Assembly: GCA_050874585.1 (NCBI GenBank)
Contig: JBNMKZ010000004.1
Coordinates: forward strand, 7-64,006
DNA: 64,000 nt
Direction of reading: 5' to 3'
Source: Verrucomicrobiota bacterium
GTDB taxonomy: Bacteria; Verrucomicrobiota; Kiritimatiellia; RFP12; UBA1067
The translations under genes were made by a program, and so were the position numbers. Position 1 is the first letter of the stretch, and each line of letters opens with the position of its first letter. Under the pieces are notes generated by a model that saw nothing but the letters and a program-made list of their open reading frames with translations, did not search any database and was not told the DNA's origin. Positions 13,268 to 61,353 of this stretch are shown in pieces.

Positions 13268-13290
13268 TTCGAGCGCGGCAGTTTAGTTTT
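13268..13290 (+). repeat. hairpin module CGCGGCA-loop-TGCCGCG, shared with the 5' extensions of repeat copies B and C
   Basis: The same 7-bp stem occurs at 58158-58179 and 61068-61121, with similar flanks (GAGCGCGGCAGTTT...TGCCGCG..TGCC.GTGG). Confidence 0.6.
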
Positions 13291-13446
13291 GCCGCGTGTG
13301 CCGTGGGGAGAACTTGCCTATTGGGAAGGAAGGACGGGCTCGTGCCTACGAAGACGCGCTCCCATCGGGACGAAAGCGTTCTCTTTTCCGCAGGAAGAGG
13401 GGCGGATATCCCGAAGGGAACGGGTTTTGATGCCCATCAGGAAGGG

Positions 13447-13530
13447 CAAGCACTAAGGTGGTTTGGATAAAGCACTAAGGTGCTTTGCTCAAAGGACTAA
13501 GGTGCTTTGTTGAAAGGACTAAGGTGCTTT
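13447..13530. repeat. four 18-bp 7-4-7 near-palindromes at exact 22-bp spacing (array I core)
   Basis: Units CAAGCAC-TAAG-GTGGTTT, AAAGCAC-TAAG-GTGCTTT and AAAGGAC-TAAG-GTGCTTT (x2) start at 13447, 13469, 13491 and 13513. Confidence 0.9.
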
Positions 13531-13612
13531 CCCTTCGTATTCCGCAACGCAGCCCTTCCTTATGGGCAGAGCAACCCTTCCTATTGGTGCAAAACGCCCA
13601 TCTTTTTGGGCG
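13531..13612. repeat. right arm of array I: CCCTT/CCCAT motifs every 22 bp, ending in a CGCCCA/TGGGCG hairpin
   Basis: CCCTT at 13531, 13553 and 13575; CCCAT at 13597. They are mirrored by AAGGG 13442, ACGGG 13420 and AGGGG 13398 about a dyad at 13488.5. Confidence 0.7.
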
Positions 13613-13846
13613 AAACTTTTCATTTTCTCAAGGAAGCGGGCGGACGCAAATCACCGTGATTCAAGATGCCCCTATCCATCTCGAAGTGCCGCGTTCCCTC
13701 GCGTCTGCCGCGCCCCTCGGGTACGCGCGCCGTTCGGATCTCGTTCTCAGGTTCTCCGACTTCCTTGTGTAGCGTTCTGAGGGCTTCCTCTTGGATTGCG
13801 CAATTTCCACTTGTTTTGATTCCGTTGTACGCTGAAAACATAATTA

Positions 13847-13855
13847 TGGTATAAT
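13847..13855 (+). promoter_or_regulatory. extended -10 TGGTATAAT for argG
   Basis: 28 nt upstream of ATG 13884, with the SD aaggag in between. Confidence 0.6.
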
Positions 13856-26627: not shown

Positions 26628-26723
26628 CGCGGACGGGATAATGCGCCTACATCGTTTTGACGCTTTGTTCCGCGTGGACGGTTTTTGGATATTTTGTTTT
26701 GAAACCCATAAGAAGGATGGGGA

Positions 26724-27567
26724 ATGAAAGTATCGCGAATGCTTGTTTATGCGGGCTGATGGGCCTGCCGTTCTTTTTGCAGGCGGCGGGTGCTCCCTCG
26801 GACTATCCAATGACCGATGTCAACCGGATGTTGGCCGATGATGTGCGCGGCGAGGCATTGAGATCGTTGACTACCATCTCCATGTTCGGGGCGGCATGAC
26901 CCCAGAGAAATGCGTTTCGCGAGAACGGGCGTGGATTGTCCGTTCAAGTGCCATGGACAATCATGGGCGGGAGTGGGAGACGAGTACGGACGCGCAATTG
27001 TGCGCTTTTGCCGCGAAAGCCCGTGCGGCGAGCGCTGGAATGCCAGTTGGCATCCAGGTGAATGACCGGGATTGGTTTGAGCAGATTGCGCCGAAGACGC
27101 GGCAGAAGTTTGACTATATCCTTGCGGATACGATGATTTTTGGCAATGATTCCGACTGGCGAAAGAATTGCCTTTGGAATCCGCAGAAGATTGTTGACGA
27201 GGACAAGTGGATGGAAGCCTATGTGAATCACCACCTGAGGATTCTTTCCGAGCCGATTTCCATTTTGGCGAACCCGACCTATCTGCCGGTCGAAATTGCC
27301 GGTGACTACGATCGGCTCTGGACGGAAGAACGGATGCGGCGGGTGATTGGTAAGGCCGTTGAGCGGGGTATTGCGATTGAGATTCAGGCGGCATCGCCTT
27401 TCCCCCGGCCGAAGTTTCTGCGCCTTGCCAAGCAAATGGGGGCTAAATTCTCGTTTGGAACGAACAATTTTGATGACCGCCCGAAGGACTTAACGCATTG
27501 GCTTGATGTCATCACTTGGCTTGACTTGCATGGGGAAGACATTTGGAAGCCAGGCGATTTGAAGTAG
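26724..27567 (+). pseudogene. PHP/amidohydrolase-like metal-dependent hydrolase, apparently disrupted by two single-base frameshifts near the 5' end
   Basis: The SD-preceded ATG 26724 gives MKVSRMLVYAG then a stop. The signal peptide continues in another frame (LMGLPFFLQAAG...). The metal motif VDYHLH lies in the main frame, upstream of its first ATG (26896) and downstream of a stop at 26839. Confidence 0.55.
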
Positions 27568-27605
27568 GGTGCGGTGTCGCTAACCGCTGCAATTATGTGA
27601 TGTTT

Positions 27606-27640
27606 GCCAGCCACTCCTTGCGGATGGCTGGCGGCTTTTA
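27606..27640 (+). terminator. probable rho-independent terminator
   Basis: GCCAGCCA / TGGCTGGC stem, then GGCTTTTA. Confidence 0.6.
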
Positions 27641-27774
27641 TGGGTGGGTGTGAATGCATTCGTTTTTCCTGTCGGTTTCGTGTTTCTGCCATTTTTATTC
27701 GTGGCGGTTTTTTTGTCACGAATCGCGGTGAATGAATGCAGGCGTAAGTGAAATAACACAAAAGCCCGTGCGTA

Positions 27775-28654: not shown

Positions 28655-29850
28655 GCAATAATACGAAGGGAATCCTTGACCTTTATCAGGAGAAGTTGAT
28701 GCCGACATATGCGCCGAGCGTGGTGCTGGCGAGCGGCAAGGGTGTGACGGTGCGTGATGTGGACGGTCGGAGTTTCTACGATTTCACTTCGGGCATTGGC
28801 GTTCACAATGTGGGCTATGCGAATCCTCAGGTCGTTCAGGCCATCCAGAATCAGGCCGCCGCGCTGACGCATTCCTCGAATCTTTTTGCAAACGAGCCTG
28901 AGACGCGCCTTGCCGAGAAGCTGGTTGCCCTGTCGGGACTGGGTGGCAAGGTGTTCTTCTGCAATTCGGGTGCGGAGGCGAACGAGGCCGCCATCAAGTT
29001 GGCCCGCAAGTGGGGCTCGGCCAACGGTGGACGCTATGAAATCGTCACGATGCGCCAGGGGTTCCATGGGCGCACACTTGCAACGGTGGCGGCGACGGCC
29101 CAGGCGTGGTGCCAGGAAGGGTACGACCCGCTCCCGGTCGGCTTTGCCTACGCGACTTATAACGATCTTGAGAGCGTGAAGGCCGCCGTCAACGAGAAGA
29201 CGGTCGCCATTATGCTTGAGGCCGTGCAGGGCGAAGGTGGCGTGACACCGGCGACCCCGGAGTTCATCGAAGGCATTCGTGCGCTGTGCGACGAGAAGAA
29301 CCTCCTCATGATTTGCGATGAGGTGCAGTCCGGCATGGGCCGTACGGGCACGTGGTTTGCCTGGCAGGGCTACAATGTGAAGCCCGACCTCTTCACCTGC
29401 GCAAAGGCGATTGCCGACGGCATCCCGATGGGCGCGCTCGTCTCGAATGCGAAACTGGCGGATGTCTTTACGCTGTCGGCCCATGCGTCGACGTTTGGCG
29501 GCAATCCCGTGGCCGCCGCTGCCGCGCTGGCGGTGATCGGCGTTATCGAGTCCGAGAACCTGCTGGCCCGGGCGACCGAGATTGGCAACCTTCTGAAGGA
29601 GGCCCTGCTTGGCTTCGTTGACAAGTACGACAAGCTTCTGGAAGTGCGCGGCAAGGGGCTGATGCTCGGTCTTGTCGTGGATGGCGAGGCGAAACCGGTG
29701 GTGGACGCGTTGCGCGACCAGGGGTTGCTTGCGCTCACGGCGGGCCCCAACGTGGTGCGCTTCCTCCCGCCGCTGGTGCTGGGCGAGAGCGATCTCGAAG
29801 ATGCCGTCGACATGATGTCCGACGCGTTGGATGGGGTGTTCGGGGAATAA
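28651..29850 (+). CDS. argD: acetylornithine aminotransferase (class III)
   Basis: 399 aa, class III aminotransferase-like throughout. ATGA-coupled to argB. Confidence 0.9.
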   Translation: MSNNTKGILDLYQEKLMPTYAPSVVLASGKGVTVRDVDGRSFYDFTSGIGVHNVGYANPQVVQAIQNQAAALTHSSNLFANEPETRLAEKLVALSGLGGKVFFCNSGAEANEAAIKLARKWGSANGGRYEIVTMRQGFHGRTLATVAATAQAWCQEGYDPLPVGFAYATYNDLESVKAAVNEKTVAIMLEAVQGEGGVTPATPEFIEGIRALCDEKNLLMICDEVQSGMGRTGTWFAWQGYNVKPDLFTCAKAIADGIPMGALVSNAKLADVFTLSAHASTFGGNPVAAAAALAVIGVIESENLLARATEIGNLLKEALLGFVDKYDKLLEVRGKGLMLGLVVDGEAKPVVDALRDQGLLALTAGPNVVRFLPPLVLGESDLEDAVDMMSDALDGVFGE

Positions 29851-29876
29851 GAGAAACCATCAGTTTCGGTGATTCG

Positions 29877-29915
29877 GGGATGCCGCGGAAGCTTCGCGGC
29901 ATCCCTTTGCTCTTT
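29877..29915 (+). terminator. rho-independent terminator
   Basis: GGGATGCCGCG / CGCGGCATCCC 11-bp stem, then TTTGCTCTTTG. Confidence 0.75.
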
Positions 29916-30287
29916 GTCGTCCTGCAAAGCCACCTTTAATTTGATGACTTGAAAGGGCCATTGGCCTGCAGAAAGTCCCTAATCCTTCTTGGCAAGACAT
30001 GGAGCGTAAGCATACGCCGTTTCTCCGTTGAGTGATTTCCTGTGAAAGGTGTCCCCAGTCCTCAAGAGATTTCCGCGCCTTGTTACGCGGCAGAAGCCCG
30101 TACTCTTGGGGTGTCTACCGCCTGACGAGGCGGTGGCAGTTCTCGATGCCGCGCTTCCCGATGTGGCTGTAGAATGCCCTCAGACACGGGATGGCCGTGC
30201 GGATTATCATCCACGCGTCGACGGGGAACGAAGGAGTCCCAGCGCGGCGTGCCTGAAGAGAACGGGTTGGCATGGGCAAGGGAAGCG

Positions 30288-30379
30288 TCTGGGATGCGCA
30301 ACCCAACGGGTCTAACTTGCGCAACCGAAGGGGTCTGGGATGCGCAACCCAAAGGGTTTAGGTTGCGCAACCTAAAGGG
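30288..30379. repeat. four tandem 23-bp units with a TGCGCAACC core (array II, left arm)
   Basis: tctgggatgcgcaacccaacggg / tctaacttgcgcaaccgaagggg / tctgggatgcgcaacccaaaggg / tttaggttgcgcaacctaaaggg. Unit 4 contains the perfect palindrome GGTTGCGCAACC. Confidence 0.9.
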
Positions 30380-30463
30380 AAAGGACTAAGGAGGTTTCTT
30401 CAAAGGACTAAGGTGCTTTGATCAAACCACCTTAGTGCTTTGTGCAAAGGACTAAGGTGCTTT
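30380..30463. repeat. four 18-bp 7-4-7 near-palindromes at 22-bp spacing (array II core)
   Basis: AAAGGAC-TAAG-GAGGTTT, AAAGGAC-TAAG-GTGCTTT, AAACCAC-CTTA-GTGCTTT and AAAGGAC-TAAG-GTGCTTT start at 30380, 30402, 30424 and 30446. This is the same unit family as 13447-13530. Confidence 0.9.
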
Positions 30464-30749
30464 CCCGTTCTCCTGCTTGTCTTCACTCGTGGAGACAAGC
30501 CTCTCCACTCTCTGTAATCGTCAAAAACCCCGTTTGTGATGAGCATTTCCGCATCGATTCATGCAGTCGCGGGAGCTCGCATCCGCGCGAACGGGCGCAG
30601 GGTGATGCGCAGGTCCCGCCTGACGGCCCCGTCGTGCTCGTCGGGATTCTGCGCTCCCGGTCGGGCGAGGTTCCTTCCTCTTTTACGGACCCATTCGGTT
30701 TTACAATTTTCCGATTTCTTTTCTGCACTTGCACAGGAGGCGCGGAATT

Positions 30750-30758
30750 TGATACAAT
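30750..30758 (+). promoter_or_regulatory. extended -10 TGATACAAT for infC
   Basis: 34 nt upstream of the proposed start at 30793. Confidence 0.5.
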
Positions 30759-30792
30759 ACGAGAATCATAAACCAAATAAAAGAGGTGGGTT

Positions 30793-31371
30793 ATCGCACA
30801 GTTCACTCGTGTAAACTTCAAGATTCGCGTGCCGCAGGTTCGCGTTCTTGATGCTCAGGGAAAAATGCTTGGCGTCATGCCGACGCGAGAAGCGCAGCGT
30901 CTTGCTGATCAACAGGGGCTCGATTTGGTGGAGATTACGCCGAATGCCGTGCCGCCAGTCTGCAAGATTATGGACTACGGTAAGTTCAAGTACGAGGAGT
31001 CCATCCGGGCGAAGCAGGCACGCAAGTCGCAGAAGGTGCAGAAGGTCAAGGAAATCAAGTTCCACCCTGGTACCGATACGAACGACTTCGATTACAAGCT
31101 CAAGCAGATTCGTGGCTTCTTGGGTGAGGGGTGCAAGGTGAAGTTGACGCTCCAGTACCGTGGTCGCGAGAACGCGCACCGTGAATTGGGCGAGGATGTC
31201 ATCAACCGCGTACTTGAGGCCCTGGCGAACGAGTGCTTCGTTGAGCAGGCGCCGAAGACGCTTGGTCGAGTTCTCGGTGCCCTGATTGGTCCGCCGCGCA
31301 AGAATGCGCCGAAAGCGCCGCGTCCGGCCGCCGAACAGAATCCGGGAGCCATTAAGATTTCCGTGTCATGA
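30793..31371 (+). CDS. infC: translation initiation factor IF-3, probable AUC start
   Basis: The conserved IF-3 N-terminus RVNFKIRVPQVRVLD lies upstream of the track start (GTG 30829). The frame opens after TAA 30778-30780. SD aagaggtgg at 30781-30789 is followed by ATC 30793. Confidence 0.85.
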   Translation: MAQFTRVNFKIRVPQVRVLDAQGKMLGVMPTREAQRLADQQGLDLVEITPNAVPPVCKIMDYGKFKYEESIRAKQARKSQKVQKVKEIKFHPGTDTNDFDYKLKQIRGFLGEGCKVKLTLQYRGRENAHRELGEDVINRVLEALANECFVEQAPKTLGRVLGALIGPPRKNAPKAPRPAAEQNPGAIKISVS

Positions 31372-38676: not shown

Positions 38677-38985
38677 ATGAACGAAGTACATGCGGTAATT
38701 GAACTCAAGATTACGCCCCAGCGTGATTGTGGCTTTGGCAAGATTGCCGAGAAGGTTTCGAAGTTCGAGCAGGTTGAGGCCTGTTTCTTGATGTCTGGCG
38801 GCTATGATCTGCTGGTGTTTGTCAAGGGTGACAGTCTTCAGGATGTGGCGCAGTTCGTTGCGGCGGATCTTTCGACGCTTGACGGTGTGCTGTCAACCTC
38901 GACGCATTTCATGCTGAAGACCTATAAGCAGAAGGGCATTCTCGACCTTCCCGAGGACGATGGGCGTTTGGCGGTGACGCCCTAA
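38677..38985 (+). CDS. Lrp/AsnC ligand-binding-domain protein (stand-alone RAM domain)
   Basis: 102 aa with a beta-alpha-beta-beta-alpha-beta RAM-like sequence and no HTH. Confidence 0.75.
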   Translation: MNEVHAVIELKITPQRDCGFGKIAEKVSKFEQVEACFLMSGGYDLLVFVKGDSLQDVAQFVAADLSTLDGVLSTSTHFMLKTYKQKGILDLPEDDGRLAVTP

Positions 38986-44082: not shown

Positions 44083-44189
44083 GCATTATTCGCGGAAAAT
44101 GGTGGCGGAATGTAGGTCTTGAACGGATGGCATGCGCTCTGCTACACTATGGGTGACACCCGTGGTGGGTGCAGAAAGAAGAAGAAAAT

Positions 44190-57166: not shown

Positions 57167-57284
57167 TTTCGTACGCATGGACCGCAAGCGGATTCCACGG
57201 TCGCGGCGCGGCAAAAGTACAGGAGCGCGGCGAAATGTCCACAGGAGATAGTGCGATCCTGTACATCAGACGAGCGAGTCCTAC

Positions 57285-57616
57285 TCATGAATGCGGGTCA
57301 TTCCTCTCATGCAAAAGGGCAAGACATCTCATGAACAAGGGTCAACCATGTCACAACGAAGGGCGGAGATGTACAGGACAAAGGGAAAGTACCATGCTAC
57401 TTTTGATAAAGCACCATGCTGGTTTGTCCAAACCACCATGCTACTTTTCACAAACCAGCATGGTGGTTTCCGCTTGTCATAAGATCCCTGACCCTTCTTC
57501 ATGAGATGTCCGACCCTTCTTCATGAGATGTCTTGCCCTTTTGTATGACAGGAATTTCACCAAATCAAGGGAGGAATTGCCCGTCGTCATGAGATTGTTT
57601 GGCCCGTTTCTTAGGA
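57285..57616. repeat. dyad-symmetric array of about fifteen 22-bp-phased units (array III)
   Basis: Left units TCAnnAnnAAGGGnnA start at 57285, 57307, 57329, 57351 and 57372. Four 7-4-7 palindromes with a CATG centre start at 57386, 57408, 57430 and 57452. Inverted copies of the left units start at 57489, 57511, 57533 and 57577. The symmetry axis is at 57427.5. Confidence 0.9.
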
Positions 57617-57617
57617 A

Positions 57618-57898
57618 TGCCGCGGGATGCCTGTGGTCGGCCTTGTCCCTCCTCTCGGGCGAGGGGGTGAGCGCGAAGTGTCGCGAGTGAGGTCTTCCAC
57701 GGGGCGCCACCGTGAGAGTTGTCTTGTCCGAAACCAGTGATAACCACCGAGGCTGGACAGGCTAAGTAAACTTTTGTTGCCCAGGCGCGAAAGGTGAGCG
57801 CAACCGTGGAAGCCGAGACCGAGCGACAGCTTCGCGCAAGCCCCCGAGCAAGCGGTTCCTGCGGGGCAGAACACGAAAACCTTCAGTGAATTTCAGTG
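57618..57898 (+). repeat. long repeat copy A (candidate structured RNA or mobile repeat)
   Basis: 57618-57867 matches 58173-58422 with 2 mismatches in 250 nt. The shared tail CTTCAGTGAATTTCAGTG ends at 57898. Confidence 0.9.
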
Positions 57899-58126
57899 TC
57901 GGTCGATAGACCGTTCAGTGTGTTCTGTGGCAGAAAACAAGCACTCCCTCCACCCACGCCGTCGGATCATCCGTCCCTTCGGGACTGCGAACCCCTCAGT
58001 TCGCCGTCGCCGCGCCCCACCCGCTCCTCCCTCCGCCCGCTCGTGGGCCTGTCCGGGGCTTCGCGAACGGCAGTCGCATGGACGGGGAATGGCACATTCG
58101 GCCCTGCTTGGGAGGCCGGGGAAAAG

Positions 58127-58495
58127 CCACACCGCGCAGGCGTTCAGAAGGCGCAAGCGCGGCAAAACCATCTGCCGCGGGATGCCTGTGGTCGGCCTTG
58201 TCCCTCCTCTCGGGCGAGGGGGTGAGCGCGAAGTGTCGCGAGTGAGGTCTTCCACGGGGCGCCACCGTGAGAGTTGTCCTGTCCGAAACCAGTGATAACC
58301 ACCGAGGCTGGACAGGCTAAGTAAACTTTTGTTGCCCAAGCGCGAAAGGTGAGCGCAACCGTGGAAGCCGAGACCGAGCGACAGCTTCGCGCAAGCCCCC
58401 GAGCAAGCGGTTCCTGCGGGGCTGACACGAAAATTCACGAAAGCCGCCTGACGGCGGACACGAAACCGCCGCGCCCTCTTCAGTGAATTTCAGTG
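58127..58495 (+). repeat. long repeat copy B with a 5' extension shared with copy C
   Basis: The 5' extension CCACACCGCGCAGGCGT...CGCGGCA...TGCCGCG matches 61040-61121. The core is 99% identical to A. There is a 3' insertion relative to A. Confidence 0.9.
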
Positions 58496-58831
58496 ACCGC
58501 CGCTAGGCATGGTAAACTCCAGGGGTAAAAATGGGTGTAGATTGCGAAGTAAGTGGACAGGGGCGACGGTAGGTCGGCGAGGGTCGCTTGTCCCCATGTC
58601 TTGAAGGCACGGATTTGCCTTGGAAGCCAAGACTCCACTGTGGGGCCTGCGTGTCCCGCGCGGAGTCCGTTCATTGGAGATTCCCCAATTTTTGAGGCAA
58701 GAAAATCGCCGCGCCCTTGAAAACAAAGGGTGAAGTGGCGATTTCCGTTTTGCGCCAAGTGAAAATCCGACAATAGGAGCACCGAGGCGTTCCGTGTCGA
58801 GACGCAGAAATTGGCCGTTGCGAGGGGTTCG

Positions 58832-60112
58832 TCATCCCGTGTTCATTCCGAAGAATGCGAAGAGCGACGCCCCGTCCCTCTTCTCGGCTTCCTCGGGGTC
58901 GAACCCGCGCCACCTGCGGCCTCTTTTCAGGATGTCGCTCGCTCCGTCCGCGATGGCGTAGAAGTGGAATTCCGGCACGTCGTGTATCCTGAACGACATG
59001 CGCGCGACGCTTCTTGCGATGACGTCGTGCCTCTCCGAGTTCCCGCTCCATGCCATGCTGAAGTAGACTGTAGTCAGGACGATCGCGGCCAGGGCCTTGA
59101 TCTTGGCGTACCTGAACAGGCGCATGTCCTCGAGGCTGTAGGACTGCTTGACGTGGCGGATGGTGTCCTCGACCCTCCAGCGGGTGATGTATCCCTCCAC
59201 GACCTGCCAGAGCGCCTCGCGCGTCGTTGTCTTCGCGAGGGTCGTCAGCAGCATCATCGGCTTCTGCCCGAACCCCCTCACGACGACCATGTGCAGGAGC
59301 CTGTCGGGGATGTCGGGAAGCCGCACGGGCACGGCGCCGAACTCGATCGTCACGCGACGCTCCTTCCCGTGGTGGTCGAACGTCACGACCTCCCTGTAGC
59401 GCATCCGGCACTCCCAGGCGAGTTCGCCGCACATGACGTTGCGCTTCCAGCTGCGCACGTACCTTTCCTTGAGTCGGACGATGAAATCCAGCCCTTTCCC
59501 GAGGAAATGGCGGTAGAACTCGATGTTGTCTCCGCCACGGTCGTACACGAATATCCCCCGCCTCTTCGTGTGCCTGGTGATTCCATCCACGATGGGCTTC
59601 ACCTCCTCGTTCTCGCTGACGAACCCCGGCGAGTCCGCGGACCACAGCCTGAAGTGCAGCGGAATCGGCCTGCGGCCGCCTGATTCGCGGGCTACGGCCA
59701 TGCAGCCCCAGAAGCCGAGGTTGTCGCCCACCTCGCCCTTGCTCCCGTCCCAGACCTTGGCGAGGTACTCCATCTTCTTCGCGTAGGGCTTCTGCACGTC
59801 GGACGGGTCCAGGATGATGAGCGCGTTCCTGTGGACCCTCCTGGCGCCCTCGGAGGCGATGAGGCGGTGCAGCCCCGCCTCCAGCCCGTCCGACGAGAGC
59901 ATCCGGCTGAGCCTGTCCTCGACCTTTTTCGGGGTGGTTTCCTCCTTCAGCGCGCGGACCACGGACGAGAGCTTCACGTCCTTCTCCGCCATGATCCCGT
60001 AGACCATGTCGCCTATGAAACGGGCGACCGGCTTGTGGAAATGGGGGGAAATCCTCCCCAGAAAAGATTCAAGTTGCCCGAGCAGTTTCGCCGCAATTGT
60101 GGTATCATGCAT
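58832..60112 (-). CDS. IS4-family DDE transposase
   Basis: 426 aa, with YDRGGD and the IS4 Y-x2-R-x3-E-x6-K signature (YITRWRVEDTIRHVK). Confidence 0.9.
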   Translation of the reverse strand: MHDTTIAAKLLGQLESFLGRISPHFHKPVARFIGDMVYGIMAEKDVKLSSVVRALKEETTPKKVEDRLSRMLSSDGLEAGLHRLIASEGARRVHRNALIILDPSDVQKPYAKKMEYLAKVWDGSKGEVGDNLGFWGCMAVARESGGRRPIPLHFRLWSADSPGFVSENEEVKPIVDGITRHTKRRGIFVYDRGGDNIEFYRHFLGKGLDFIVRLKERYVRSWKRNVMCGELAWECRMRYREVVTFDHHGKERRVTIEFGAVPVRLPDIPDRLLHMVVVRGFGQKPMMLLTTLAKTTTREALWQVVEGYITRWRVEDTIRHVKQSYSLEDMRLFRYAKIKALAAIVLTTVYFSMAWSGNSERHDVIARSVARMSFRIHDVPEFHFYAIADGASDILKRGRRWRGFDPEEAEKRDGASLFAFFGMNTG

Positions 60113-60149
60113 GGCGTCGCCTTTCCTGTTTGGTGTTTAGCACTTCGGC

Positions 60150-60158
60150 ATTATACCG
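60150..60158 (-). promoter_or_regulatory. -10 CGGTATAAT for the transposase, within a CTTCGG/CCGAAG palindrome
   Basis: Read on the minus strand, about 38 nt upstream of the start at 60112. Confidence 0.5.
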
Positions 60159-60273
60159 AAGATCGAACTCGAAAGGCGACTCTCTTTCCCAAAAATCGGC
60201 TCATAACCGCGCAGACCGTCGCAACGTCTTGCCAGCGAAGAAAAATGGGGAACCTCCAAAAGCGGATACCCCG

Positions 60274-61039: not shown

Positions 61040-61353
61040 CCACCGCGCAGGCGTGTGAAGGCGCGAGCGCGGCAGTTTGGGTGGCCTGCCGGACGGCAGG
61101 CCGGCAAGACCATTTGCCGCGTTTTGGCCTGTGGTCAGCCTGTTCCTTCTCTCGGGCGAGGGGGTGCGCGCGAAGTGTCGCGAGTGAGGTCTTCCGCGGG
61201 GCGCCACCGTAGGAGTTGTTTCGTCCGAAACCAGCCGTCTTGTCGAGGCTGGACAGGCTAAGTAAACTTTTGTTGCCCAGGCGCGAGAGGTGAGCGCAAC
61301 CGTGGAAGCCGAGACCGAGCGACAGCTTCGCGCAAACACACGAGCAAGCGGTT
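61040..61353 (+). repeat. long repeat copy C (diverged, roughly 87% identical to A in the core)
   Basis: Collinear with B, including the 5' extension. The 3' half GGCTGGACAGGCTAAGTAAAC...CAGCTTCGCGCAA is nearly identical. It ends directly at a TGATATAAT promoter. Confidence 0.9.

What the first reader, a model, noticed from the sequence alone, without database searches (positions are those of the whole stretch)
30288..30467. A third array: four 23-bp TGCGCAACC units followed by four 22-bp palindromic units, upstream of infC
Eight consecutive units are present. Units 1-4 have a 23-bp period and each carries a (G)GNTGCGCAACC(C) palindromic core followed by AA(A/C)GGG. Unit 4 contains the perfect 12-bp palindrome GGTTGCGCAACC. 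Units 5-8 have a 22-bp period and are the same 7-4-7 family as array I; unit 7 is inverted (AAACCAC-CTTA-GTGCTTT). The first mirrored position on the right side reads CCCGT (30464), but the rest of the right arm is missing. GCAAC half-sites also occur in the right arm of array I. This suggests one modular toolkit (GCAACC, AAGGG, AAAGSAC-N4-GTGCTTT) assembled in different ways at each locus.
Basis: seen in the sequence. Interest (0 to 1): 0.65.

Follow-up and report, generated by a model that had tools for sequence, protein, structure and literature searches.

The report
Phased palindrome-array intergenic repeat family
The eight tandem units are the core of a roughly 0.5-kb repeat, present about twenty times per genome in gut Kiritimatiellia, that is built from four near-invariant 18-bp palindromes flanked by phased arm units; it is most likely a protein-binding DNA scaffold upstream of promoters, but the protein that binds it is unknown.

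Summary
The array is real and far beyond chance. However, it is only the middle of a larger dispersed repeat, which I call 'type A' (window about 30187-30716).

- **Copy number.** There are at least 14 copies at 73-86% identity in a 95%-identical Kiritimatiellia MAG. In the source metagenomes the centre k-mers sit at 20-27 times single-copy depth.
- **Architecture.** Four 18-bp palindromes (AAA-S-N-AC N4 GT-N-S-TTT) sit at a 22-bp period. They are flanked by 3-4 phased arm units per side, punctuated by GGG on the left and CCC on the right.
- **Right arm.** It is not missing. It is made of different 22-bp units that are conserved in the paralogs.
- **Fixed centre size.** 39 of 43 elements have exactly four centre units.
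- **Selection on the palindromes.** Cores are 97% conserved against 76% for the 4-bp spacers. An orthologous pair shows 0/84 differences in the centre against 27/295 outside it.
- **Not RNA.** The palindrome positions that vary do not covary, Rfam finds nothing, and the element lies between the argD terminator and the infC promoter.
- **Not ancestral at infC.** Relatives lack the element there.
- **Not a known mobile element.** No terminal inverted repeats, target-site duplications, or plasmid/phage homology were found.

Best reading: a spreading, selected, double-stranded-DNA protein-binding scaffold upstream of promoters. The binding protein and the regulatory effect are not identified. Similar arrays abound in Prevotellaceae-like Bacteroidales.

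The parts
29876..29916 (+). Intrinsic terminator of the argB-argD operon (14-bp stem followed by a T run). It marks the upstream limit of the untranscribed gap that holds the element.
   Evidence: argB and argD identified from the ORF translations, argD confirmed by the precomputed Pfam PF00202 on its product.
29981..30186 (.). Extra left flank shared only with some copies (L054 at 77.7% identity; partly L083, L014, L048). 29985-30058 is itself about 3-fold repeated by k-mer depth.
30187..30282 (+). Outer left module of the type A element. Conservation rises from background to 0.73 across this stretch.
30283..30379 (+). Left arm: four 23-bp units, each a TGCGCA-centred palindrome (GGATGCGCAACC / GGTTGCGCAACC) followed by A(A/C)GGG. 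The number of units varies from 1 to 4 between paralogs.
30380..30463 (.). Centre: four 18-bp palindromes (30380-97, 30402-19, 30424-41, 30446-63) separated by 4-bp spacers. This amounts to eight 7-bp half-sites AAASNAC alternating in orientation every 11 bp. Core orientation pattern is + + - +.
   Evidence: k-mer depth 635-839x against 31-37x in the flanks
30464..30551 (+). Right arm: four 22-bp units beginning CCCG/CTCG/CTCT/CCGT. It does not mirror the left arm, but it is conserved at 0.80-0.86 among paralogs and has about 8-fold k-mer depth.
30552..30716 (+). Outer right module, ending in the conserved box CCCATTCGGTTTTACAATTTTCCG (30690-30713). Homology to the element-free infC locus of a close relative (L094) resumes at 30720.
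30730..30758 (+). Native infC promoter (TGCACA-17-TACAAT with a TG extension). It is conserved in relatives that lack the element. The Shine-Dalgarno sequence is at 30780-87 and the probable ATC start at 30793.
13287..13616 (+). Sister element, locus I (centre 13447-13530; right arm of three CCCTTC-N16 units), about 320 bp upstream of the argG -10 box at 13847.
57255..57633 (.). Sister element, locus II or 'type B' (centre 57386-57469, units AAAGYACCATGSTRSTTT; arms 57300-57363 and 57492-57555 are 84% complementary). It lies upstream of the minus-strand operon of an unknown gene plus proS.

Best explanation
The finding is the core of a dispersed intergenic repeat of about 0.45-0.55 kb (type A, window about 30187-30716). 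It belongs to a superfamily of 'phased palindrome-array' elements in gut Kiritimatiellia.

Each element is a string of about 10-12 dyad-symmetric units of 22 bp (23 bp in the type A left arm):
- Four nearly invariant 18-bp palindromes form the centre. These are eight AAASNAC half-sites alternating in orientation every 11 bp, so all lie on roughly one face of the helix.
- On each side are 3-4 arm units. Their only feature shared across families is a GGG (left) or CCC (right) punctuation in phase with the centre.

I propose that it acts as double-stranded DNA. Four dimers (or one octamer) of a sequence-specific DNA-binding protein occupy the centre. The phased, mirror-symmetric arms let the flanking DNA wrap around or extend this complex into a symmetric nucleoprotein structure of about 260 bp. 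The structure sits in the untranscribed gap between the argD terminator and the infC promoter, where it modulates the downstream promoter by activating or insulating it. The module has spread to other promoter-upstream regions by duplication or recombination and is kept there by selection.

**Shown:** the repeat architecture, copy number, dispersal, fixed polarity towards gene starts, stronger constraint on the palindromes than on spacers or arms, absence of RNA-type covariation, and lineage-specific presence at infC.

**Inferred:** protein binding, the stoichiometry, the wrapping, and any effect on transcription.
For: **Dispersal**
- At least 14 type A copies at 73-86% identity occur in MAG CAKTUI01. 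That MAG is 95% identical to the window in orthologous genes.
- In the source runs the centre k-mers are at 635-839x depth, against 31-37x in the flanks.

**Architecture**
- 39 of 43 elements have exactly four centre units.
- The arm punctuation GG[GT] carries 1-1.9 bits for three units on each side and vanishes by unit 5-6.

**Selection**
- Pairwise identity among copies peaks at the centre (0.96) and falls to background at about 30176 and 30726. The 18-bp cores score 0.97 against 0.76 for the 4-bp spacers.
- The orthologous pair window locus II and L093 has 0/84 differences in the centre against 27/295 in the rest (Fisher p = 0.0013).
- gltB carries an element at the same distance (283 and 285 bp) and with the TGCGCA-type units on the gltB side in two species whose GltB proteins are 93.6% identical. 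The palindrome core differs between them.

**DNA rather than RNA**
- Variable positions 4/15 and 5/14 are complementary in 44% and 55% of 165 units. Independence predicts 52% and 44%.
- The arm palindromes (TGCGCA, CCGCGG) have no loop.
- Rfam finds nothing.
- The element lies between a strong terminator and the infC promoter.

**Polarity**
- The right-end box faces a gene start in at least 8 well-annotated type A copies (infC, fhs, gltA, carB, gyrB, a GH88-like gene, argB, pcnB) and 3 probable ones. One truncated copy is the exception.
Against: - No binding protein was identified. No DNA-binding gene is consistently adjacent to the arrays, and tblastn with ArgR, Lrp and HU-HIG queries found nothing in the Kiritimatiellia, window or Bacteroidales loci; HU-HIG matched only Saccharibacteria loci.
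- The arrays lie 200-330 bp from the -10 boxes, which is far for a classical sigma-70 activator or repressor.
- The arm sequences differ between families, so the arms may not be specific binding sites at all.
- Conservation of the centre among paralogs could also reflect gene conversion, or a requirement for the element's own propagation rather than a benefit to the host.
- No expression data could be obtained: the runs labelled RNA are low-identity contigs, probably DNA.
- Relatives manage infC expression without the element.
Confidence: 0.45

Rival explanations
1. It is a purely selfish, non-autonomous mobile element. The 22-bp units would be multiple binding sites for a transposase or recombinase supplied in trans, in the way Tn7 TnsB and Mu MuA bind several 22-bp sites in each transposon end. 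There would be no function for the host.
For: - The element is multi-copy and dispersed, and its presence or absence differs between close relatives: at infC in the window but not in L094, and at argB in CAKTUI but not in the window.
- Arm units lie in mirror orientation on the two sides.
- Assembly contigs break inside it.
- IS elements lie next to or inside copies.
Against: - No terminal inverted repeats or target-site duplications were found.
- Type A ends are ragged, with nested subfamilies, and type B boundaries show no inverted termini.
- The most conserved part is the middle, not the ends.
- An inherited orthologous copy keeps its centre unchanged while the rest diverges by 9%.
- The element has a fixed polarity towards gene starts.
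- The CAKTUI argB copy carries extra flanking DNA, which suggests recombination rather than precise transposition.
- There is no match to plasmids or phages and only one pattern match in 2.9 million viral contigs.
Confidence: 0.2
2. It is the operator or enhancer array of one specific regulon, concerned with arginine, glutamate or nitrogen. The four 18-bp palindromes would act like tandem ARG boxes (ArgR) or like upstream sites for an NtrC-type or Lrp-type regulator.
For: - Elements flank argG, argB-argD, carB, gltA-argJ and gltB in the window plus CAKTUI (5 of 26 elements), and gltB again in L013.
- gltB has a sigma-54 promoter in both species, and such promoters need an upstream activator.
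- ARG boxes are 18-bp palindromes set in tandem 2-3 bp apart (established knowledge).
Against: - The same type A sequence also precedes infC, fhs, gyrB, pcnB, an antiporter gene and others.
- Only 4 of the 10 core ARG-box positions (TGAAT/ATTCA) match.
- The arrays are 200-330 bp from sigma-70 promoters and do not overlap them.
- Sigma-54 promoters were found only at gltB.
- No argR or lrp gene was found in the fetched DNA.
- The enrichment was defined after looking at the data.
Confidence: 0.12
3. It is an iteron-type replication origin or a centromere-like partition site. This would resemble the four dyad-symmetric iterons of lambda ori bound by O protein, the 22-bp plasmid iterons, or parC/tubC arrays.
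For: - Four contiguous dyad-symmetric units at a 22-bp period is exactly the geometry of lambda ori and of many plasmid iterons (established knowledge).
- The pattern scan also hit iteron-like arrays in Azoarcus MAGs upstream of gidA.
Against: - There are three arrays in 64 kb and about 20 or more per genome.
- There is no adjacent rep or par gene, AT-rich unwinding region or DnaA boxes.
- The flanking genes are housekeeping genes.
- There is no plasmid or phage homology.
Confidence: 0.05
4. It is a structured RNA or an array of hairpins acting on single strands: an sRNA, a leader, a terminator array, or REP-like substrates for a RAYT enzyme.
For: - Each 22-nt unit can in principle fold as a 7-bp stem with a 4-nt loop.
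- REP/BIME elements are likewise mosaics of palindromes.
Against: - There is no covariation at the variable stem positions; the commonest unit has a G-G mismatch.
- The arm palindromes have no loop.
- There is no Rfam match at gathering score, and only miRNA-like noise at E > 0.1.
- The element lies between a terminator and a promoter.
- There is no GTAG/CGTC head.
- The profile hits score nearly equally on both strands.
Confidence: 0.03

Closest known systems
BOX elements of Streptococcus pneumoniae (boxA-boxB(n)-boxC)
   Same: Both are dispersed intergenic mosaic repeats built from distinct modules. An internal module is tandemly repeated a variable number of times (here the left arm has 1-4 units). 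Both lie near gene starts and can influence expression.
   Different: There is no sequence relation. BOX modules are 45-59 bp and thought to act through RNA or DNA secondary structure. Here the units are 22 bp, each dyad-symmetric, with a fixed set of four centre units, mirror-symmetric arms and no stem covariation.
REP/BIME elements of enterobacteria and pseudomonads (RAYT-associated)
   Same: Both are high-copy extragenic palindromes assembled into mosaics. BIMEs bind host proteins (gyrase, IHF, Pol I).
   Different: REPs are 20-40-nt stem-loops with a GTAG/CGTC head. They occur typically at 3' ends of genes or between convergent genes and are mobilised by RAYTs. None of these features was found here; the RAYT gene could not be tested.
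Lambda ori iterons (O-some) and 22-bp plasmid iterons (R6K, pPS10, RK2)
   Same: Both have four contiguous units of about 18-19 bp, dyad-symmetric in lambda, at a period of about 22 bp. In those systems initiator dimers bind and DNA wraps into a higher-order complex. This is the closest analogue for how the element might work.
   Different: Those are single-copy origin elements next to a rep gene and an AT-rich region. Here there are about 20 or more chromosomal copies upstream of housekeeping genes, with phased arms instead.
Tandem ARG boxes (ArgR) and tandem pho boxes (PhoB)
   Same: ARG boxes are 18-bp palindromes set in tandem on one DNA face. Pho boxes have a 7-4-7 layout and repeat every 22 bp. 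Several elements here flank arginine genes.
   Different: The ARG-box consensus is not met. Pho-box halves are direct repeats, not inverted ones. Those operators lie at the promoter and are not part of a 0.5-kb dispersed repeat.
Multiple 22-bp transposase-binding sites in Tn7 (TnsB) and Mu (MuA) ends
   Same: Both use a 22-bp unit. Tn7R has four contiguous sites, and the site arrays lie in inverted orientation at the two ends.
   Different: Those sites are asymmetric and lie at the element termini next to TGT...ACA ends. Here the best-conserved units are palindromic and central, and no termini of that kind or adjacent tns/rve genes belong to the element.
Putative mobile promoters and Correia-type elements
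   Same: Both are homologous upstream regions found in front of unrelated genes, with a fixed polarity towards the gene.
   Different: The native infC promoter lies outside the element. A promoter inside the element (the TACAAT in the right-end box) is only conjecture.

Membership tests
REP/BIME (RAYT-mobilised) | Unit is a 20-40-nt imperfect palindrome whose stem is maintained (stem-loop) | tested here: not met
   Stem positions 4/15 and 5/14 are complementary in 44% and 55% of 165 units, as expected from independence. The arm palindromes have no loop.
REP/BIME (RAYT-mobilised) | Conserved GTAG or CGTC tetranucleotide at the head of the palindrome | tested here: not met
   Units begin with AAA[GC] and arm units end with GGG. 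No GTAG/CGTC head appears in any register.
REP/BIME (RAYT-mobilised) | A RAYT (Y1 transposase) gene in the genome, flanked by REPs | not testable with these tools
   Only 8-kb blocks around the arrays and the 64-kb window were available. No such gene was seen next to any array.
MITE / non-autonomous IS derivative | Terminal inverted repeats and target-site duplication with sharp ends | tested here: not met
   Type B ends are defined by 4 copies and show no inverted termini or duplication. Type A ends are ragged, and the filled and empty sites differ by more than the element.
CRISPR array | Repeats of 23-47 bp separated by unique spacers of similar length | tested here: not met
   Spacers are 4 bp and there are only four units.
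Iteron replication origin | Single locus with an adjacent rep gene, an AT-rich unwinding element and DnaA boxes | tested here: not met
   There are three loci in 64 kb and about 20 or more per genome. Neighbours are housekeeping genes and there is no plasmid or phage similarity.
ARG-box operator (ArgR) | 18-bp palindrome matching WNTGAATWWWWATTCANW, in pairs 2-3 bp apart, overlapping the promoter | tested here: not met
   The length (18 bp) and tandem layout fit, but spacing is 4 bp. Only 4 of the 10 core positions match (read directly from the sequence), and the arrays lie 200-330 bp upstream of the -10 boxes.
Any Rfam RNA family | Covariance-model score at or above the gathering threshold | tested here: not met
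   Only four tRNAs were found in the window. In 29850-30830 the best hits are miRNA models at 19-22 bits against gathering scores of 79-90.
Phased palindrome-array elements (family defined here) | Four 18-bp AAA...TTT palindromes at a 22-bp period, plus phased GGG/CCC-punctuated arms, intergenic and multi-copy | tested here: met
   All three window loci and 39 of 43 Kiritimatiellia elements meet this definition.

The most novel reading that the evidence does not exclude
Chromosomal 'iteron-like' arrays, each made of four dyad-symmetric 18-bp sites at a 22-bp period with phased arms, are a previously undescribed and widespread class of bacterial nucleoprotein assembly site. They would be bound by an unidentified abundant DNA-binding protein (or a family of paralogues whose specificity is set by the inner tetranucleotide). 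They would organise promoter-upstream DNA as enhancer-like or insulator-like elements and would be spread through genomes as mobile regulatory cassettes. They occur in at least Kiritimatiellia and Prevotellaceae-like Bacteroidales. Saccharibacteria may have them too, and there the arrays sit beside an HU-HIG gene.
Probability: 0.25. Interest if true: 0.85.

Novelty: new variant of a known kind. Interest (0 to 1): 0.62.

Why it matters
Kiritimatiellia are uncultured or barely cultured gut bacteria, and nothing is known about how they regulate their genes. These elements show all of the following:
- a repeat that occupies some twenty or more promoter-upstream regions per genome;
- clear selection on four palindromes and a fixed count of four;
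- placement beside central genes such as infC, arg genes, carB, gltB, proS and trpS.

This points to a major DNA-binding factor and a form of regulatory or chromatin organisation that has not been described. It also shows how a complex binding platform can be copied in front of unrelated genes. The 88-bp centre is a ready-made bait for identifying the protein.

In practical terms, these elements break short-read assemblies and can be used as lineage markers.

Tried and rejected
- **RNA evidence.** The runs labelled RNA that share infC words (X21-X24) gave only short contigs of low identity, probably DNA. They give no information on transcription.
- **Rfam.** Nothing was found in either gathering or permissive mode.
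- **Known mobile DNA.** blastn of 30187-30716 against plasmids and phages gave no match. The pattern matched once in the viral contigs.
- **Candidate binders.** tblastn with ArgR, AhrC and Lrp sequences (written from memory) and with the Saccharibacteria HU-HIG protein found nothing in the Kiritimatiellia or Bacteroidales loci.
- **XRE-cupin genes.** They sit next to two arrays but are only 21% identical to each other.
- **Neighbour clustering.** Clustering the neighbours of 136 metagenome arrays found no recurrent family beyond duplicates from replicate samples.
- **Sigma-54 enhancer idea.** Sigma-54 promoters are near arrays only at gltB.
- **'The promoter is the right end of the cassette'.** Rejected. 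The infC -10 box is conserved in relatives that lack the element; MAFFT had merely aligned the ubiquitous TGGTATAAT boxes.
- **Internal promoter at CTATAATCG.** The hexamer is variable (TATAAT, TGTAAT, TGTAAC), so it is not convincing.
- **Literature.** Searches by sequence strings and by 'Kiritimatiell* + intergenic + repeat' found nothing relevant.
- **Intergenic context.** Convergent contexts are rare (3 dubious cases out of 26) but not significantly depleted.

Full report
**Observation**

Tandem Repeats Finder reports 30283-30379 (period 23, 4.2 copies, score 110) and 30380-30463 (period 22, 3.8 copies, score 96). It also reports sister arrays at 13448-13530 and 57391-57462.

Printing the sequence in register shows four 23-bp units carrying TGCGCA-centred palindromes followed by A(A/C)GGG. 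GGTTGCGCAACC lies at 30361-30372. Four 7-4-7 units AAAGGAC-TAAG-GTGCTTT follow, and the third has an inverted core.

A two-unit pattern hits only the three loci (10 matches against 0 in 100 shuffles). A profile HMM built from 36 centres of other genomes finds exactly these three places in the window at E <= 1e-21, on both strands. The description is therefore correct and not due to chance.

One statement is wrong. The right arm is not missing: 30464-30551 is four more 22-bp units of a different sequence.

**What it is part of**

The genes in the window identify a member of the Kiritimatiellia. They include argB, argD, infC, psd, pssA, argG, dnaK, groEL and V-type ATPase genes, and IF3 homologues carry that taxon name.

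Of these, 23 come from one Kiritimatiellaeota MAG from a Hadza gut sample (CAKTUI01). Others come from MAGs CAVIVB01, CAVGIZ01 and CAVLAC01.

blastn against the window shows that CAKTUI01 is about 95% identical to the window in orthologous genes. It holds at least 14 copies of the segment 30187-30625 at 73-86% identity, in both orientations and next to unrelated genes. An alignment of 15 copies shows the same modules in the same order:
- an outer left module;
- 1-4 TGCGCA units;
- four centre units;
- the four right-arm units;
- an outer right module ending in the box CCCATTCGnTTTACAATTTTCC.

In the two metagenomes that hold the window genome, unitig depth is 31-37x in the flanks and 635-839x over 30392-30465. 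It is about 270x over the right arm and about 113x over the left arm. The centre is thus present roughly 20-27 times per genome, and the arms less often. This fits a mosaic of shared and family-specific modules.

Loci I and II of the window belong to other families with the same plan. Type B has sharp ends at about 57255 and 57633.

**Architecture**
- Of 43 Kiritimatiellia elements, 39 have exactly four centre units.
- Each centre unit is an 18-bp palindrome AAA-S-N-AC N4 GT-N-S-TTT plus a 4-bp spacer. The spacer and the inner loop are both 4 bp, so the centre is equally well described as eight 7-bp half-sites alternating in orientation every 11 bp.
- When both arms are pooled with the right arm reverse-complemented, the last three positions of each 22-bp arm unit read GG[GT]. 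They carry 1-1.9 bits for three units, less for the fourth, and nothing by the fifth and sixth. The other 18 positions are family-specific and often themselves palindromic (GATGCGCATC, GATGCCCATC, TCATGA).
- The whole element therefore has an overall dyad of about 220-264 bp. The type A left arm is the only arm with a 23-bp period.

**DNA or RNA**
- At the variable palindrome positions 4/15 and 5/14, only 44% and 55% of 165 units are complementary. Independence predicts 52% and 44%. The commonest type A unit has a G-G mismatch.
- The arm palindromes have no loop.
- Rfam gives nothing.
- A 14-bp-stem intrinsic terminator follows argD at 29876-29906, and the infC promoter is at 30730-30758. The element sits in a gap that is probably not transcribed.
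- These points argue for recognition as double-stranded DNA by dimeric proteins, not for RNA or single-stranded hairpins.

**Selection**
- Among the 15 type A copies, mean pairwise identity is 0.96 in the centre and 0.80-0.90 in the arms. It is 0.5-0.6 in the outer modules and at background (0.33) beyond about 30176 and 30726.
- Inside the centre the 18-bp cores score 0.97 and the spacers 0.76.
- The orthologous pair window locus II and L093 has the same flanks at 93-97% identity. It shows 0 differences in the 84-bp centre against 27 in the other 295 aligned positions (Fisher p = 0.0013).
- gltB has an element upstream in CAKTUI01 (L049) and in another species (L013; GltB proteins 93.6% identical). 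In both, the centre lies 283 or 285 bp from the start codon and TGCGCA-type units face gltB. The inner core differs, TAAG against CGCA.
- Within any one element the inner tetranucleotide is uniform. Its orientation pattern is fixed within a family (+ + - + in type A), while half-site positions 4-5 vary freely.

**Mobility**
- Relatives with 82-88% identical IF3 have only about 117 bp between the upstream gene and infC, and no array.
- A 93% relative (L094) is homologous to the window only from 30720 onward. That stretch includes the promoter but not the element.
- CAKTUI01 carries a type A copy upstream of argB, where the window has other DNA. That copy shares extra left flank (29981-30186) with the window copy.
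- Copies are therefore gained or lost on short time scales. No terminal inverted repeats or target duplications are visible and the ends are ragged. Duplication or recombination is more likely than cut-and-paste transposition.
- There is no similarity to plasmids or phages, and the pattern is essentially absent from viral contigs.

**Context**

The right-end box of type A faces a gene start in at least eight well-annotated copies: infC, fhs, citrate synthase (followed by argJ), carB, gyrB, a GH88-like gene, argB and pcnB. Three further copies probably do the same, and one truncated copy does not.

All three window arrays have an outward TGnTAnAAT box 220-320 bp away.

Arginine and glutamate genes are over-represented next to elements: argG, argB-argD, carB, gltA-argJ and gltB make 5 of 26 elements in the window plus CAKTUI01. 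This category was chosen after looking at the data. Many other neighbours are unrelated housekeeping genes such as proS, trpS, metY, pnp and dnaA.

**Mechanism**

I commit to a protein-binding scaffold. Four dimers (or an octamer) sit on the centre, and the phased mirror-image arms let about 260 bp of DNA wrap around or extend the complex, as at lambda ori or plasmid iterons. The complex would affect the downstream promoter by activating it, insulating it from upstream transcription, or changing local topology.

The 11-bp spacing of half-sites is slightly longer than the helical repeat, so it would favour underwound or writhed DNA; this is inference. No binding protein was found, so binding, stoichiometry and effect remain inferred.

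The rivals are listed with their evidence in the Rival explanations section:
- a selfish element whose units bind a transposase;
- a specific arginine or nitrogen regulon operator;
- an origin or centromere;
- an RNA.

**Wider distribution**

The metagenome scan, which required three units, returned more than 120 loci and hit its limit. Most belong to a second family, AAACGACYGCRGTSGTTT, with 3-5 units (mode 4) and arm arrays AAACGAAGGGCATCGTTT or AAAGGATGCCCTTCGTTT. Several can occur on one contig.

The host organisms have a CTP synthase about 80% identical to that of Alloprevotella. These arrays also lack stem complementarity; this was judged by eye from the unit listing, not counted. No recurrent neighbouring gene was found.

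Saccharibacteria carry 3-4-unit arrays that always sit beside an HU-HIG gene or a fragment of one.

Because the search pattern itself imposed the unit shape, homology between phyla is not shown. The shared count of four and the 22-bp phasing are nonetheless notable.

**Comparison and novelty**

The element behaves like known interspersed mosaic repeats (BOX, BIME). Its centre looks like an iteron or operator array. It fails the defining tests for REP/RAYT elements, MITEs, CRISPR arrays, origin iterons, ARG boxes and every Rfam family.

No paper in the searchable library mentions these sequences or such repeats in Kiritimatiellia.

I rate it a new variant of a known kind (interspersed intergenic mosaic repeats). 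It would become a new class of nucleoprotein site if a dedicated binding protein is found.

Noticed in passing
window 57625-60261: This segment is absent from the 95%-identical ortholog L093. It holds an IS4-type transposase gene (58832-60112, minus strand, Pfam DDE_Tnp_1). It appears to be a recent insertion right next to array locus II.
   Followed up: partly
window 57618-57870, 58173-58425, 61141-61353: A second dispersed repeat of about 250 nt (TGTCCCTCCTCTCGGGCGAGGGGGTGAGCGCGAAGTGTCGCGAG...). Two of the copies are 99% identical and lie 555 bp apart. The same repeat abuts every type B copy seen in L078, L070 and L093, and also occurs in L059, L064 and L087. A short version (TCTCGGGCGAGG) lies in the outer right module of type A.
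   Followed up: partly
L124 1-3003 (metagenome contig OQVL01009320.1): A type A copy and a type B copy lie 560 bp apart. An IS with two paralogous rve-like ORFs (466 and 486 aa, 63% identical) is inserted into the type B right arm. The C-terminus of the same transposase appears at the start of L054.
   Followed up: partly
window 30780-30795: infC most likely starts at a non-canonical ATC codon (30793), 5 nt after the Shine-Dalgarno sequence AAGAGGTG. This fits the known autoregulation of IF3 through an unusual start codon. The listed ORF begins only at GTG 30829.
   Followed up: no
window, 18 sites (e.g. 13847, 27775, 35070, 46251): The extended -10 box TGGTATAAT (TGnTAnAAT) occurs 18 times in 64 kb, almost always just upstream of a gene. 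This organism seems to rely on a very uniform extended -10 promoter.
   Followed up: partly
L049 3381-3396; L013 6440-6425 (minus strand); window 44128-44143: gltB has a conserved sigma-54-type promoter (TGGCACGGTTCGTGCT and TGGCACGGATTATGCT) about 45 bp before its ATG in two species. A similar motif, TGGCATGCGCTCTGCT, lies 41 bp before dnaK in the window.
   Followed up: partly
L035 1993-2550; also L037, L047, L053, L066, L075, L089, L154 and others: In Saccharibacteria, 3-4 units of AAAGTACCGTGGTAGTTT at a 22-bp period lie 49 bp upstream of a 141-aa HU-HIG (PF18291) gene. In other genomes they lie beside C-terminal fragments of that gene. A second locus type (L016, L077) has four extra 22-bp arm units and lies between corA and a polysaccharide deacetylase gene.
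   Followed up: partly
L104-L223 (JGI metagenomes Ga0065709, Ga0065711, Ga0181612): High-GC Prevotellaceae-like Bacteroidales carry more than 100 arrays of AAACGACYGCRGTSGTTT (3-5 units, mode 4). These often have 3-5 arm units AAACGAAGGGCATCGTTT on one side. Several can occur per contig, in short intergenic gaps close to gene starts or ends.
   Followed up: partly
L076 1-84; L082 440-545: Azoarcus MAGs have 4-5 units of AAACCATGAGCGTGGTTTTTTA at a 22-bp period upstream of gidA/mnmG. These look like iterons and could be origin-related. L092 has six units of AAACGACTATAGTGGTTTACAA.
   Followed up: no
window 29985-30058; L054 5260-5470: This short segment left of the element is about 3-fold repeated by k-mer depth, and some contigs skip 30044-30117. 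In L054 the corresponding place carries a 61-codon ORF that resembles the C-terminus of an ACR3 arsenite transporter (identified by eye). Both versions begin with the codons M-S-C on the minus strand.
   Followed up: no
window 38677-38985: A stand-alone Lrp/AsnC ligand-binding (RAM) domain protein of 102 aa with no HTH domain.
   Followed up: no
window 26630-27745 compared with L054 5208-6230: The 223-aa ORF 26896-27567 (no Pfam match) is present in the window but absent from the 95%-identical relative. In the relative, the same gap between conserved genes holds the ACR3-like fragment plus a type A element.
   Followed up: partly
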